Shown: positions 12,418 to 45,931 of the stretch, piece after piece
Position numbering within the stretch: position 1 is the stretch's first letter
Layout: every line of letters begins with the position of its first letter
Sequence record: MW250786
Direction: 5' to 3' (one strand)
DNA from: Escherichia phage UPEC06
Length of the DNA stretch: 64,000 nt
Program-made: the position numbers and the translations under genes
Notes under the pieces: model-generated
Seen by the model: only the letters and a program-made list of their open reading frames with translations
Databases searched by the model: none
Told to the model about the DNA's origin: nothing

Positions 12418-13194
12418 TTACATACCCTCCAGGTTTGCTTCAAAATAAGTGATTGGCTTCATGATCTTGCCATTCTTATCTTTAAATACTACACGATCCA
12501 TACCATCACCACCTTTTACGATGCTTCCCTTTACACCTTGATAACGGTTACGGTTACGCAGTTCAATCTGTTCAGCTTCCAAACGCAACATGGCATCAAG
12601 ATCAAAATCAGCTTCTGCAAAAAAGTAATACGTCTTGTAGAAACATTCCGTAAATTCTTTCACGGTTGGGATCTTGGAATCATTTGAATCCAAAACCTCA
12701 TTTAAAGCACGACGAGCATTAAAGTTGGAGTTCTGCATGATTGCAACAACCGCCATAACGATCCCGTTTGTATTGTCACTCTCGATAAATTGATCAAGAG
12801 TTCGATAAAGCGAAGTCAGATTATACGTACCCATATTGTCAGCAGGACAGATGTTTTCAGAACCACCTTTTAGGAAGTTGTAATATGATCCAACTACAAA
12901 CAAGTCGCAAAGTGCATCTATGATTTCCTTACGATTCTTTTTAGTTAAACCAAGATCATAAAGTTCATTGTACTCTTCCATAACAAGAGTTTTTTGGAAT
13001 TTTGAAATATCTTCAGAGAAGTCATGAAAACCACGAGCAACAAAATTCCAATTTTTTACTCGCTCTGCTGCTTCCCGAAAGAAGCTATTGCCCTTAACAT
13101 CAATCATCTCGGAAATAAAGGTTTTCTGATCAGCACTCAATTCATTGTATTTCAATTTAATCTCCTTTCGTTTAACTTGGGGGCCATTATACAT
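12418..13194 (-). CDS. hypothetical protein (weak MazG-like NTP pyrophosphatase resemblance)
   Basis: EEYNELYD...CDLFVVG loosely resembles MazG EExxEL / GDxLF motifs; speculative. Confidence 0.25.
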   Translation of the reverse strand: MYNGPQVKRKEIKLKYNELSADQKTFISEMIDVKGNSFFREAAERVKNWNFVARGFHDFSEDISKFQKTLVMEEYNELYDLGLTKKNRKEIIDALCDLFVVGSYYNFLKGGSENICPADNMGTYNLTSLYRTLDQFIESDNTNGIVMAVVAIMQNSNFNARRALNEVLDSNDSKIPTVKEFTECFYKTYYFFAEADFDLDAMLRLEAEQIELRNRNRYQGVKGSIVKGGDGMDRVVFKDKNGKIMKPITYFEANLEGM

Positions 13195-13209
13195 GACCCC
13201 TTATCATTG

Positions 13210-13671
13210 TCAACAGTCTTTATAAGTTTCTAGTGCAACTTTACGGGCTTCATCCTTTTCAATCTCAAACTTAGATCGTTTGTCCTTTCTTGAAGCCTTG
13301 TTACGTCGCTTAACGATTCGACGACAGGTGTGGTAAAGTCGTGTACCTTCATAATCATTCATCCAGAACAGATCGCCATTCACGAAGAGAGTATCGGAGA
13401 TAATACCACAAGCCTTTTCAATGTAAGTAACCTTACCTGTGACCGTATCGACAATTGTATAGTCAACATACCAAAGACTATCGTTATCCTCGCACGGGTC
13501 TTGTTGGCCTTCAGGAACAAAAACTCCAGAATGTATCTCAAATCGAGGAGATCCTTTACGGATCAGCTTCAAGATTTTACCTGCTGGCTTACGAGTTAGC
13601 AGTACCGGAACACCTAAGACTACTGAAAGGTAAAGTGTAATCCCTACAAACCCAATAATTAAAGCTTCCAC
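13210..13671 (-). CDS. hypothetical membrane-anchored protein
   Basis: N-terminal hydrophobic helix (LIIGFVGITLYLSVVLGVPVLL) then basic region. Confidence 0.35.
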   Translation of the reverse strand: MEALIIGFVGITLYLSVVLGVPVLLTRKPAGKILKLIRKGSPRFEIHSGVFVPEGQQDPCEDNDSLWYVDYTIVDTVTGKVTYIEKACGIISDTLFVNGDLFWMNDYEGTRLYHTCRRIVKRRNKASRKDKRSKFEIEKDEARKVALETYKDC

Positions 13672-15613: not shown

Positions 15614-15967
15614 CTAAACAGAGAAAAGAACCTCTTCTTTCTCCACATGAAATTCAAAATCGTCCACAAGATTAGATTCCCAGTCCTTACTTTCATGGTA
15701 ACTACACGTCCAACGGTAAACACCAGGACCAGAATCTGAATCTGGGGGAAGACCAATATACTCCGCTTCAGGACCCTCGTCAAGCAATGCAGGGTGAATA
15801 TTTGGTGCTTTAAGGACGGTTACCCGTCCACTGTAATCGACAGCCACGATCCAAACACTACCGTTAGGAGATTCGAAAACTTCCTCTTCTGGATCTTCTT
15901 TGATAAGAGTTTTGTTTGGCTTTTTCAAGCAGGTTGCTAATCCAGAATCAATCCACTGGTTTGACAT
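15614..15967 (-). CDS. hypothetical protein
   Basis: ORF track 15614..16105 trimmed to the internal Met (MSNQWIDSGL) because the upstream part overlaps the 15987..16358 gene. Confidence 0.3.
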   Translation of the reverse strand: MSNQWIDSGLATCLKKPNKTLIKEDPEEEVFESPNGSVWIVAVDYSGRVTVLKAPNIHPALLDEGPEAEYIGLPPDSDSGPGVYRWTCSYHESKDWESNLVDDFEFHVEKEEVLFSV

Positions 15968-15986: not shown

Positions 15987-16358
15987 TCAGACAGACTTTT
16001 TCTTTTTTGTGACACGTTTCTTCTCCTTTTCCACTTTTGGTGGTGCTTTCTTTTTAGGTTTGGTCCAAGCCTTTTTAGGCTCATCTGGCTTCTCATACAG
16101 CCCAAGCACGACTCTTTCTATCGCACTCATAGGAACGATTGTCATCTTCCGTCTCTTAGCGTCAGGAAGCTGTAACTCCCAAATACCCAACCAATAAGAG
16201 AGATCATCAATGCGATCCTGTACCCAAGGGTCCGGCTTCGGAATAGTTAGTAGTCTACTCAACTCTTCATTGCATGTCAACAAACATTCTTCAAGTTTTT
16301 CAACTGGCGTATTAAAAACAAAGGCCGTCTTGTCAAAAGGCTTCTTCTCTGTCGTCAT
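15987..16358 (-). CDS. hypothetical protein with lysine-rich C-terminal tail
   Basis: C-terminus KKAWTKPKKKAPPKVEKEKKRVTKKKKSV. Confidence 0.35.
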   Translation of the reverse strand: MTTEKKPFDKTAFVFNTPVEKLEECLLTCNEELSRLLTIPKPDPWVQDRIDDLSYWLGIWELQLPDAKRRKMTIVPMSAIERVVLGLYEKPDEPKKAWTKPKKKAPPKVEKEKKRVTKKKKSV

Positions 16359-17546: not shown

Positions 17547-17828
17547 TCAGATCATCTCCAAAGTTATTAGTACATTATCCAAATCTTCAGCCACAAGCTG
17601 TAAGTCAGGCTTCATACTATCTTCCACACGATGATAAATCAAGCCTTTTTCCACATACTGATTCATTACTCCGTAATAGTTCCCCAAAATGGTGTACCAG
17701 TCACATTCGTAAACAGTCACAACACATACTTTCAGTCCAGCTTTTGCTGAATGCCAAGCTTCTCTCATAGCTTGAAGATGACTTAATTCATTTTCTGATA
17801 ACTTTTTACATTTATTATTCAAAATCAT
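17547..17828 (-). CDS. hypothetical protein (first gene of the leftward array)
   Basis: ORF track; lies at the edge of the divergent intergenic region. Confidence 0.35.
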   Translation of the reverse strand: MILNNKCKKLSENELSHLQAMREAWHSAKAGLKVCVVTVYECDWYTILGNYYGVMNQYVEKGLIYHRVEDSMKPDLQLVAEDLDNVLITLEMI

Positions 17829-17926
17829 TATAAAGATAACCTGTTGTTTGTTAAAGTAGAGTCACTATACCTATGTAAAAACTCCATGTCAAGACTTTAA
17901 ATTTAAAAAATTTAGTATAAAATCTA

Positions 17927-17993
17927 TAAAAGATCCTTTAAGATCTGTAGATCTATAGATCATATATATAAAAAGATCTTATAAAAGATCTTG
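17927..17993. repeat. cluster of GATC-containing short repeats (AAAGATCTT / AGATCT)
   Basis: Six GATC cores in about 65 bp, including two AAAGATCTT and two AGATCT palindromes. Confidence 0.6.
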
Positions 17994-18015
17994 TTTTTAT
18001 TGTTTTTAATAATAA

Positions 18016-18066
18016 TTATGAATGAAATGAATAATTATTATATAATTTATGAATGAAATGAATAAA
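18016..18066. repeat. 19-bp direct repeat TTATGAATGAAATGAATAA x2 in AT-rich DNA
   Basis: Copies at 18016-18034 and 18048-18066; ATAAAGGGTTTG is also repeated at about 18074 and 18141. Confidence 0.6.
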
Positions 18067-18149
18067 TTATAATGATAAAGGGTTTGGCGAGAGGCTTCGA
18101 GCCAGGGAAATCTAATATAGTATTGTATGCCTAAACGGGCATAAAGGGT

Positions 18150-18177
18150 TTGACATGTTGGGATAGTCATGTAAGAT
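18150..18177 (+). promoter_or_regulatory. sigma70-like promoter candidate for the rightward small-ORF operon
   Basis: TTGACA, 16-nt spacer, TAAGAT; followed by AAGAGGAGGG and the ATG at 18206. Confidence 0.4.
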
Positions 18178-18205
18178 AGCGAAGGTAAGATTAAGAGGAG
18201 GGTCT

Positions 18206-44607: not shown

Positions 44608-44975
44608 TGATTGATCTTAATAAGAAATATGTAAGGACATTCGACTTTGAATTGTCTGGATATCCTGACGAAACTTTCCGTGTTGTTTTGGATTCCGTTA
44701 CCTACGAACTGCGATTCGTTTGGAACGAGAGAGATGAATCTTGGTTTTTCTCCTTAGGGGATATCGGTGTTCCACCAACGATAACAACCAAGCTTACTTG
44801 CTACGCGGATATTATAGGGCCTTATCGCTACCTTGATAATGTGCCGGAAGGAAACTTGTACTTATTCCCACTAAGAGACATTGCTACTCGCGTGGGTCGT
44901 TATAACGTTGGCCCTCTCTCTGGTGTTCAAATGATTTATGCATCAAGAGAGGAAGATGTGGAGGCGATCAATTAA
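44607..44975 (+). CDS. putative baseplate protein
   Basis: Translationally coupled small gene in the baseplate block. Confidence 0.3.
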   Translation: MIDLNKKYVRTFDFELSGYPDETFRVVLDSVTYELRFVWNERDESWFFSLGDIGVPPTITTKLTCYADIIGPYRYLDNVPEGNLYLFPLRDIATRVGRYNVGPLSGVQMIYASREEDVEAIN

Positions 44976-45931
44976 TGAAAGCATTGGAAAGGACATATAC
45001 TTTAGTTATCGGAAGGCCTGTTTATATTGGTGAAAAGCCAGTCAACATTGAGCGCTACGCCACTAACAGTAACCAAGGTGAAGCATATGAGATCAAGGAT
45101 CTTCATATTACCTTTCAGTTAAAGAAAGACAACTCAAAGGAACCTAACAAGGGATACGTAAGTGTATTTAACCTTTCCGATGACGTTGTTAACTACCTCA
45201 GTATAAACCAAAGGGAATCTCTCGCTGTCCTTTTAAAAGCGGGATACAATGGTGACGAAAAACTTATCTTTTCTGGAACAATCGAGTTCGTGGAGGATAC
45301 TTTCTCAGAGGAAACACGAGAGACTAAGTTTATTTTTGGTGATGGAACCCTGAACTTGACTACCGCCACAACATCCCGATCTTACCGAAAGGGAACACCT
45401 GTGAATCAGGTTCTTAATGATCTTATCTCTGATCTTAAGCTACCCAAAGGTCGTGTTGTTCCTTTTGGTGCTGACACATTACAGAGTTCTATGGCATTTA
45501 CTGGGAATGCGGCACAGAACTTAGAAAACCTTGCAAAAAATACCGGATCTACCTTTTCGATACAGGATGGTGCTGTCTATTGGACAAAAGAAGGTTCTCG
45601 GTTTGCAAATGTTATGTTTGAGATCTCTGAAGAAGGCGGGATGGTTGGCACACCAACATTAAAGCAACCAAACATCTCGAAGAAGAAAAAGAAGAAAGAT
45701 ACAAAAGATACTTCAAATAAGAAGGAGAAGAATATAAAGGAGGACGTTGGTTTAACAGTAACCACACTCCTTAATGGTGCAATCCTTCCTGAGTCTACAG
45801 TATATCTGAACACCCGTTACATTAAGGGTTTTTACAAAGTCATTGAGTTGACGCACAGAGGTGGTTACGAAACAGGCGACTGGGTAACCGAATTAGGTCT
45901 TGCAGAAACACGAGGGGAGTTGATAAGATAA
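44975..45931 (+). CDS. putative baseplate hub/tail protein with poly-lysine insertion
   Basis: Position; internal KKKKKKDTKDTSNKKEKNIKED segment. Confidence 0.35.
   Translation: MKALERTYTLVIGRPVYIGEKPVNIERYATNSNQGEAYEIKDLHITFQLKKDNSKEPNKGYVSVFNLSDDVVNYLSINQRESLAVLLKAGYNGDEKLIFSGTIEFVEDTFSEETRETKFIFGDGTLNLTTATTSRSYRKGTPVNQVLNDLISDLKLPKGRVVPFGADTLQSSMAFTGNAAQNLENLAKNTGSTFSIQDGAVYWTKEGSRFANVMFEISEEGGMVGTPTLKQPNISKKKKKKDTKDTSNKKEKNIKEDVGLTVTTLLNGAILPESTVYLNTRYIKGFYKVIELTHRGGYETGDWVTELGLAETRGELIR

What the first reader, a model, noticed from the sequence alone, without database searches (positions are those of the whole stretch)
15987..16358. Small protein with a histone-like lysine-rich C-terminal tail
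The C-terminus (KKAWTKPKKKAPPKVEKEKKRVTKKKKSV) resembles basic DNA-condensing tails; it could be a nucleoid-targeting or DNA-compacting early protein.
Basis: inference. Interest (0 to 1): 0.3.

Follow-up and report, generated by a model that had tools for sequence, protein, structure and literature searches.

The report
Phage protein with linker-histone-like lysine arm
A small phage gene of unknown function encodes an acidic folded head joined to a floppy lysine-rich arm like the tail of linker histone H1; all its relatives keep such an arm but at either end of the protein, which suggests it grips DNA or RNA, though this is untested.

Summary
Window 15987..16358 (-) is a real 123-aa gene whose last 31 residues hold 14 lysines (P about 1.6e-9 at this phage's lysine usage), the most cationic stretch in the window.

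The window is a Septuagintavirus-like E. coli myovirus (Vequintavirinae). The gene belongs to PHROG 6208, function unknown, found in 256 phage records and often mislabelled "transposase-like".

- **Family architecture:** all 93 members analysed have an acidic core of about 75-80 aa (net -2 to -10). 90 of 93 have arms with net charge of at least +7 (median +13).
- **Arm composition:** K 37%, P 12%, A 11%, K:R 5.5, with S/TPKK-type motifs in 41 of 92, which resembles the histone H1 tail.
- **Arm position:** mostly N-terminal, but C-terminal in this clade, and the two arm charges trade off (rho about -0.6 to -0.8).
- **Core fold:** a confident beta-alpha-alpha-beta-alpha model with no relative in the PDB.
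- **Expression context:** absent from the W70 virion proteome; sits near the head of a sigma70-promoted DNA replication/repair operon.

Best reading, at moderate confidence: an early, non-virion protein that binds nucleic acid non-specifically through the arm, with the core as an interaction module. It is histone-like by composition only, not by homology. Binding, localisation and compaction could not be tested. Interest is modest.

The parts
15987..16358 (-). Complete ORF (123 aa plus TGA stop), member of PHROG 6208. Orthologs: A5-4 A54_201, W70_154, A73_169, A71_86.
16095..16337 (-). Conserved acidic core, residues 8-88. Predicted fold is beta(14-18)-alpha(19-37)-alpha(44-69)-beta(74-78)-alpha(79-85) at pLDDT above 90. 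Near-invariant residues: D9 A12 F13 F15 T17 Y55 W56 W60 P65 V75 A79 E81 L85 G86, plus a conserved AKRRG loop.
15990..16094 (-). Lysine-rich disordered C-terminal arm, residues 89-123 (EKPDEPKKAWTKPKKKAPPKVEKEKKRVTKKKKSV). Net charge +11, pLDDT 55-62, no predicted secondary structure.
17864..17892 (-). Sigma70-like promoter candidate (TTGACA-17-TATAGT, 11/12) in the divergent intergenic region that heads the minus-strand gene string containing the ORF.
   Evidence: consensus match only
17827..17854 (-). Second sigma70-like promoter candidate (TTAACA-16-TATAAT, 11/12), directly upstream of the first gene of the string.
   Evidence: consensus match only

Best explanation
This is an early or middle, non-virion accessory protein built as a two-block polyampholyte. 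One block is a compact acidic beta-alpha-alpha-beta-alpha head with no known relatives. The other is a flexible lysine/proline/alanine-rich arm with linker-histone H1 tail composition. The arm most likely binds nucleic acid electrostatically and without sequence specificity. DNA is the likelier target, given the co-transcribed replication, recombination and ligation genes. The acidic head would supply a protein-protein contact: self-association, a phage or host partner, or folding back onto its own arm. The protein would thereby coat, bridge or tether something to DNA during genome takeover or replication. Shown here: the gene, the architecture, family-wide selection on arm charge regardless of terminus, predicted disorder, operon context and absence from virions. 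Inferred only: nucleic-acid binding, the choice of DNA over RNA, and any compaction or bridging.
For: (1) The tail is real and highly non-random. (2) In 93 homologs the core is always acidic. Arms total a median of +13 and at least +7 in 90 of 93. N-arm and C-arm charge are anticorrelated, with Spearman rho of -0.60 overall and -0.63 to -0.81 after reducing redundancy to 70-50% identity. Selection therefore acts on total cationic arm rather than on sequence or position. (3) Arm composition is K 37%, P 12%, A 11%, S+T 15%, with only 5.8% hydrophobic residues. K:R is 5.5 in the arms against 1.2 in the core, and [ST]P[KR][KR] motifs occur in 41 of 92 members. This matches H1 C-terminal domain and PAKKA-type tails, for which DNA interaction and stimulation of end-joining have been shown experimentally (PMC3553676). 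(4) Two tail alleles in near-identical phages are scrambled in sequence but both lysine-rich, with an in-frame indel. (5) AlphaFold2 gives a confident core and an unstructured arm. (6) Consensus sigma70 promoters head the gene string. The operon carries DNA ligase, exonuclease, endonuclease VII, a polymerase subunit, dNMP kinase and thymidylate synthase. Equivalent placement upstream of phosphoesterase, RNA ligase, PNK-like ATPase, Sir2 and DNA ligase is seen in PVP-SE1, Hena1, KpS8, GAP31 and ESCO5, and near the ligase and exonuclease in rV5. (7) The ortholog W70_154 is not among the 28 virion proteins found by MS.
Against: There is no direct evidence of nucleic-acid binding. The folded core is acidic and matches no DNA- or RNA-binding fold. 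Core charge and arm charge are correlated (rho -0.48), so part of the arm's charge may just balance the core. The tandem-copy AlphaFold2 test did not give confident self-association (pTM 0.47, no coordinates available), so bridging through oligomers is unsupported. The gene-neighbourhood argument is weak, because these operons hold dozens of unrelated small genes. The correlations are not phylogenetically corrected.
Confidence: 0.45

Rival explanations
1. It is an RNA-directed protein. The lysine arm binds rRNA, tRNA or mRNA in the manner of ribosomal-protein extensions or RNA chaperones, and serves translation takeover or the neighbouring RNA-repair enzymes.
Against: The uL29 hits are generic hairpin matches no better than de novo designed proteins. 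In this window and in rV5 the neighbours are DNA enzymes, and no RNA ligase was seen in the window operon. No RNA-binding domain was detected.
Confidence: 0.2
2. The acidic core is the functional part, for example a binder or decoy for a host protein such as RNA polymerase, a nucleoid protein or a defence factor. The basic arms would then serve mainly for charge balance, solubility or intramolecular autoinhibition, not for nucleic-acid binding.
For: The core is the only sequence-conserved part, with invariant aromatic and acidic residues. More acidic cores go with more basic arms (rho -0.48). Many small early phage proteins act by binding host proteins (general knowledge).
Against: Net protein charge stays clearly positive (mean +6.3, SD 2.4) rather than near zero. 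The strong preference for K over R and the S/TPKK-type motifs are not needed for charge balancing alone.
Confidence: 0.2
3. It is a virion-internal, DNA-associated 'packaged histone', co-packaged with the genome like adenovirus protein VII or the T4 internal proteins.
For: It is small and very basic. Other Vequintavirinae virion proteins have been proposed to help DNA encapsidation.
Against: W70_154 is absent from the 28 proteins detected in purified W70 virions. The gene lies in the replication/repair operon, far from the structural module at roughly 22.9-57 kb. It is not named among the rV5 virion proteins in the main text. Caveat: a small lysine-rich protein yields few usable tryptic peptides.
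Confidence: 0.04
4. It is a transposase-like or recombinase-related protein, as many database records label it.
For: The label 'putative transposase-like protein' occurs in rV5, PVP-SE1, GAP31, ESCO5 and many other records.
Against: No transposase, integrase or HTH domain appears in Pfam, NCBIfam, PHROGs or PDB searches, even at permissive E-values. At 80-133 aa with no catalytic motif it is too small. The label is copied between records by similarity notes, and the rV5 paper never discusses it.
Confidence: 0.02

Closest known systems
Linker histone H1 C-terminal domain, and bacterial H1-like lysine-rich proteins and tails (mycobacterial Hlp/HupB and Ku PAKKA repeats; Chlamydia Hc1 and Pseudomonas AlgP cited from general knowledge)
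   Same: A disordered, low-complexity K/P/A/S/T-rich polycationic segment with S/TPKK-like motifs, evolving by composition rather than sequence and prone to in-frame indels. In Ku and Hlp such tails contact DNA and promote end apposition and ligation (PMC3553676). Here the gene is co-transcribed with ligases.
   Different: No winged-helix globular H1 domain and no HU or Ku fold. The attached domain is an acidic helical hairpin with a small sheet and no known relatives. The arm is short at 10-46 aa and can sit at either terminus. Binding is untested.
PHROG 6208 (the 'transposase-like protein' of rV5, PVP-SE1 and GAP31)
   Same: Direct family membership: E 1.8e-20 over residues 4-96. Homologs occur in 256 phage records.
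   Different: The PHROG profile (95 positions) ends where this protein's long arm begins. The 35-aa C-terminal arm is specific to the Septuagintavirus and SSBI34 clade; most members carry the long arm at the N-terminus. The family has no assigned function.
Bacillus phage phi29 early protein p16.7 (membrane-anchored DNA-replication organiser)
   Same: A small early phage protein. It shares a short motif, RR.M.TVP.CA.E.A.LGLYEK against RSIDKTVNLSACEVAVLDLYEQS.
   Different: The match is not significant: PDB profile search E 0.44, hhalign probability 16% over 26 columns. p16.7 has a transmembrane anchor and a different C-terminal DNA-binding domain, and it did not appear in the structure searches.
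Lysine-rich N-terminal tail of Dps and the N-terminal arm of lambda cI repressor (general knowledge)
   Same: Short flexible lysine arms on a folded oligomeric body that contribute DNA contact or condensation.
   Different: Those bodies are known folds (ferritin-like; HTH). Here the body is novel and acidic, and its oligomeric state is unknown (one search was inconclusive).

Membership tests
PHROG 6208 (Vequintavirinae small conserved protein, function unknown) | Significant match to the family profile over the conserved core | tested here: met
   E 1.8e-20, residues 4-96 against profile positions 9-93 of 95. 91 homologs were found by profile search.
Linker histone H1/H5 | Winged-helix globular domain (Pfam Linker_histone) | tested here: not met
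Linker histone H1/H5 | Disordered K/A/P-rich terminal domain with S/TPKK motifs | tested here: met
   Arms: K 37%, P 12%, A 11%, S+T 15%. [ST]P[KR][KR] occurs in 41 of 92 members. Tail pLDDT is 55-62 with no secondary structure. This is analogy by composition, not homology.
Linker histone H1/H5 | Binds and condenses DNA or chromatin | not testable with these tools
   Needs EMSA, microscopy or single-molecule assays.
Bacterial nucleoid-associated proteins (HU/IHF, H-NS, Fis, Lsr2, Dps) | Presence of the corresponding DNA-binding fold or domain | tested here: not met
Transposase / transposase-like (database label) | DDE, HUH or serine/tyrosine catalytic domain, or a transposase HTH domain | tested here: not met
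   No hit in Pfam, NCBIfam, PHROG functional families or PDB sequences. Protein length is 80-133 aa across the family.
phi29 p16.7 replication organiser family | Significant profile similarity, with an N-terminal membrane anchor and the p16.7 C-terminal domain | tested here: not met
   hhalign probability 16.5% over 26 columns. PDB profile search E 0.44. No hydrophobic N-terminus in the query (compared).
Virion internal / DNA-packaged basic proteins | Detected in purified virions | tested here: not met
   The ortholog W70_154 is not among the 28 proteins in the W70 virion ESI-MS/MS table (PMC11370258). This is literature evidence, with limited sensitivity for small lysine-rich proteins.
Anti-phage defence system components (PADLOC) | Match to a defence-system protein model | tested here: not met
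   There is only one faint hit, in one of 17 members (Cas11b, E 0.017), and none for the query.

The most novel reading that the evidence does not exclude
This subfamily-wide family could be a phage 'linker-histone analogue'. A novel acidic head would be coupled to an H1-like arm that can sit at either terminus. Early in infection it would condense or bridge DNA: shutting down the host nucleoid, organising phage replication foci as protein-DNA condensates, or apposing DNA ends for the co-transcribed ligases in the way Ku and Hlp PAKKA tails do.
Probability: 0.12. Interest if true: 0.6.

Novelty: new variant of a known kind. Interest (0 to 1): 0.3.

Why it matters
If the arm does bind DNA, this would be a conserved, experimentally tractable, histone-H1-like accessory protein in a group of therapeutic-candidate coliphages whose early genes are almost all uncharacterised. 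The family also offers a natural experiment. The same core carries its cationic arm at the N-terminus, the C-terminus or both, with total charge held roughly constant. That makes it a clean case for asking what selection sees in a disordered polycationic region. In practical terms, the 'transposase-like' label copied through many phage records appears unfounded and should be dropped. If the arm turns out to be only charge balance for an acidic protein-binding head, the finding is ordinary.

Tried and rejected
- **Domain searches:** Pfam, NCBIfam and PADLOC scans of the query and 17 homologs found nothing beyond low-complexity noise such as TonB and LigD linkers.
- **phi29 p16.7 lead:** I fetched the sequence and ran hhalign. 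Probability was 16%, so homology is rejected.
- **Self-association:** a tandem two-copy AlphaFold2 model, using the natural arm as linker, gave pTM 0.47 with no coordinates or PAE available, so this is inconclusive.
- **Domain fusions:** none among 91 homologs.
- **Programmed frameshift:** a dnaX-like A AAA AAG heptamer sits in the tail, but it is not conserved in the second tail allele, so I dropped the idea.
- **Literature:** searches for the family, for Vequintavirinae transcriptomics and for the origin of the 'transposase-like' label found nothing relevant.
- **Virion-protein hypothesis:** rejected on the W70 proteome.
- **Spurious ORF extension:** rejected on the substitution pattern and on conservation in six genomes.

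Full report
**Observation.** The quoted C-terminus is residues 95-123. The last 31 residues contain 14 Lys and 1 Arg against 3 Glu (net +12, pI 10.6). Residues 1-92 are net -3 (pI 5.0). Lysine frequency in this phage's long ORFs is 6.35%. At that frequency the probability of 14 or more Lys in 31 residues is 1.6e-9, against about 15,600 possible windows. It is the most cationic 30-residue stretch in any ORF of 60 aa or more in the window.

The ORF is annotated with the same boundaries in five closely related phages. Substitutions between the window and its nearest relatives are almost all synonymous in this frame. In the core they run 13:0 and 8:1 (synonymous to non-synonymous), and in the tail 3:2 and 2:1, against 0-1 synonymous in the other two frames. 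So the tail is translated sequence, under weaker constraint than the core.

**What genome this is.** The region is 94-96% identical to Escherichia phages LTH01, A5-4, A73, W70 and A7_1. These are the recently described genus Septuagintavirus of the Vequintavirinae, myoviruses of about 140 kb (PMC11370258).

**The family.** Pfam gives nothing. PHROGs places the protein in phrog_6208, function unknown, at E 1.8e-20. The match covers only residues 4-96 of the protein and 9-93 of a 95-position profile, so the long tail lies outside the family model. tblastn finds homologs in 256 phage records across Escherichia, Klebsiella, Salmonella, Cronobacter and Erwinia phages. By comparison, the major capsid protein is found in 217 Escherichia, 40 Klebsiella and 17 Salmonella records. 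The gene is therefore present in most enterobacterial members of the group.

Many records call it 'transposase-like protein'. That label is passed on through 'similar to' notes. It has no support in any domain search or in the rV5 genome paper.

**The key result: a position-independent cationic arm.** An exhaustive HMMER search and a profile search gave 97 sequences of 54-133 aa with no domain fusions. I aligned the 93 that were 85 aa or longer.

- **Core:** the region equivalent to query residues 8-88 is acidic in every member (net -2 to -10).
- **Arms:** the flanking segments carry a summed net charge with median +13 (IQR 12-15), and at least +7 in 90 of 93 members.
- **Position:** in most members the long arm is N-terminal (for example MAKTPKKQSARKPATKRAAPAKSQTAPKPK) with only a short C-terminal EKPKGRKKK. 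In the window's clade, and in Salmonella phage SSBI34, the N-terminus is short and the long arm is C-terminal. Some members have medium arms at both ends.
- **Trade-off:** N-arm and C-arm charge are anticorrelated. Spearman rho is -0.60 (p 1.7e-10), and -0.63 to -0.81 after thinning to 70-50% core identity. This is not phylogenetically corrected.
- **Composition:** the pooled arms are K 37%, P 12%, A 11%, T 8%, S 7%, R 7%, with only 5.8% hydrophobic residues. K:R is 5.5 in the arms against 1.2 in the core. [ST]P[KR][KR] motifs occur in 41 of 92 members.

Among the six near-identical Septuagintavirus genomes there are two tail alleles. They differ at most positions and by a 3-nt indel, yet both are lysine-rich, while the core stays about 95% identical. 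All of this points to selection on the amount of flexible positive charge attached to the core, not on its sequence or its terminus. That behaviour is typical of functional polycationic disordered regions such as the H1 C-terminal domain.

A PDB sequence-profile search raised one lead: a 20-residue motif shared with phi29 early protein p16.7 (E 0.44). I fetched p16.7 and ran hhalign. The probability was 16.5% over 26 columns, so homology is not supported.

To test self-association I modelled a tandem two-copy construct with a matching 32-sequence alignment. Both cores refolded, but pTM was 0.47 and no coordinates or PAE were available, so the result is inconclusive.

**Expression and context.** The gene is the seventh in a minus-strand string that begins at a divergent intergenic region (about 17,829-18,205). 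That region holds two 11/12 matches to the sigma70 consensus on the minus strand. No terminator-like site lies on that strand before the ORF (these are consensus matches only).

Downstream in the same orientation lie DNA ligase, a nucleotide pyrophosphohydrolase, an HNH endonuclease, an exonuclease, endonuclease VII, a DNA-polymerase subunit, dNMP kinase and thymidylate synthase.

In PVP-SE1, Hena1, KpS8, GAP31 and ESCO5 the homolog is the second to fifth gene after an equivalent divergent promoter region. It is followed by a phosphoesterase, RNA ligase, PNK-like ATPase, Sir2 and ATP-dependent DNA ligase. In rV5 it sits between the DNA ligase and an exonuclease and endonuclease VII, inside the proposed non-structural transcription unit, genes 82-163.

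The W70 ortholog W70_154 is not among the 28 virion proteins detected by ESI-MS/MS. One caveat is that lysine-rich small proteins are hard to detect by tryptic MS.

**Interpretation.** The best-supported reading (confidence about 0.45) is an early or middle, non-virion protein that uses its H1-like arm for electrostatic, sequence-independent binding of nucleic acid. DNA is the likelier target given the operon. The acidic head would act as a protein-interaction or self-association module.

Experimental precedent exists for such tails on unrelated domains. The PAKKA repeats of mycobacterial Ku and Hlp contact DNA and promote end apposition and ligation, and the authors argue that such tails evolved repeatedly (PMC3553676).

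The rivals are:

- **RNA-directed role (0.2):** supported by the RNA-repair neighbours in several genera.
- **Core as protein binder (0.2):** the acidic core would be the functional part and the arm mainly a charge balancer or autoinhibitor. This is supported by the correlation between core and arm charge (rho -0.48). It is weakened by the persistently positive net charge (+6.3, SD 2.4) and by the lysine and S/TPKK bias.
- **Packaged virion protein (0.04).**
- **Transposase-like function (0.02).**

None of the binding claims can be tested with these tools.

**Comparison with known systems.** The protein works like, or at least looks like, proteins carrying H1-type tails. It is not a member of the H1, HU/IHF, H-NS, Dps, Ku, p16.7 or transposase families, because each defining fold or domain was tested and not found. 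It is a member of PHROG 6208.

**Verdict.** Novelty is a new variant of a known kind, namely a lysine-rich low-complexity arm on a previously undescribed acidic fold, with the arm's terminus interchangeable across the family. Interest is modest (0.3).

Noticed in passing
window 16013..16028 (-) and 15965..15967 (-): The start of the downstream gene (phrog_4953) is ambiguous. A GTG at 16015-16013 follows a perfect Shine-Dalgarno AAGGAG (16028-16023) with a 7-nt spacer, and it is open in the +1 frame through to the ATG at 15967 that A5-4 and W70 annotate. LTH01 annotates the GTG start. The ATG has only GGA immediately adjacent. A GTG start would overlap the last 9 codons of the lysine tail by 29 nt. 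That could explain why the distal 45 nt or so of the tail are identical in both tail alleles while the proximal tail is scrambled. The PHROG profile alignment begins near the ATG, which favours the shorter form.
   Followed up: partly
window 15987..16358; alignment A3 columns ~220-330: There is a mosaic recombination breakpoint inside the gene. W70 and A73 follow the A5-4 allele through the first ~220 nt and then switch to the A7_1 allele, including the alternative tail.
   Followed up: partly
window ~16004..16010 (-), tail codons 116-118: A dnaX-type -1 slippery heptamer, A AAA AAG, lies in frame five codons before the stop. It is not conserved in the second tail allele (GTC AAA AAG), so it is probably just a by-product of lysine codons.
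   Followed up: partly
window 44975..45931 (+): This is the second most lysine-dense stretch in the window (12 K in 31 aa: TPTLKQPNISKKKKKKDTKDTSNKKEKNIK). It lies inside a baseplate-hub homolog (phrog_196).
   Followed up: partly
window 13210..13671 (-): The gene right after DNA ligase encodes a 153-aa predicted membrane protein (phrog_12581, 'host takeover' category) with a strongly basic C-terminal segment, RRIVKRRNKASRKDKRSKFEIEK.
   Followed up: no
window 13186..13213 (-): There is a perfect 12/12 sigma70 consensus promoter (TTGACA-16-TATAAT) at the 3' end of the 13210..13671 gene, facing the nucleotide pyrophosphohydrolase gene. It may be an internal operon promoter.
   Followed up: no
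L002, L004, L011, L012 (PVP-SE1, Hena1, KpS8, GAP31): In these genera the operon containing the homolog diverges from an NAD-salvage pair (nicotinamide phosphoribosyltransferase and ribose-phosphate pyrophosphokinase) and includes Sir2, RNA ligase and a PNK-like ATPase. That looks like a counter-defence and repair island. The window's genus has a different arrangement.
   Followed up: no
L010 (Escherichia phage ESCO5) 4908..5832: In ESCO5 an HNH homing endonuclease gene overlaps the 3' end of the homolog. rV5 has a homing endonuclease immediately upstream. The locus seems to be a recurrent insertion site for homing endonucleases.
   Followed up: no
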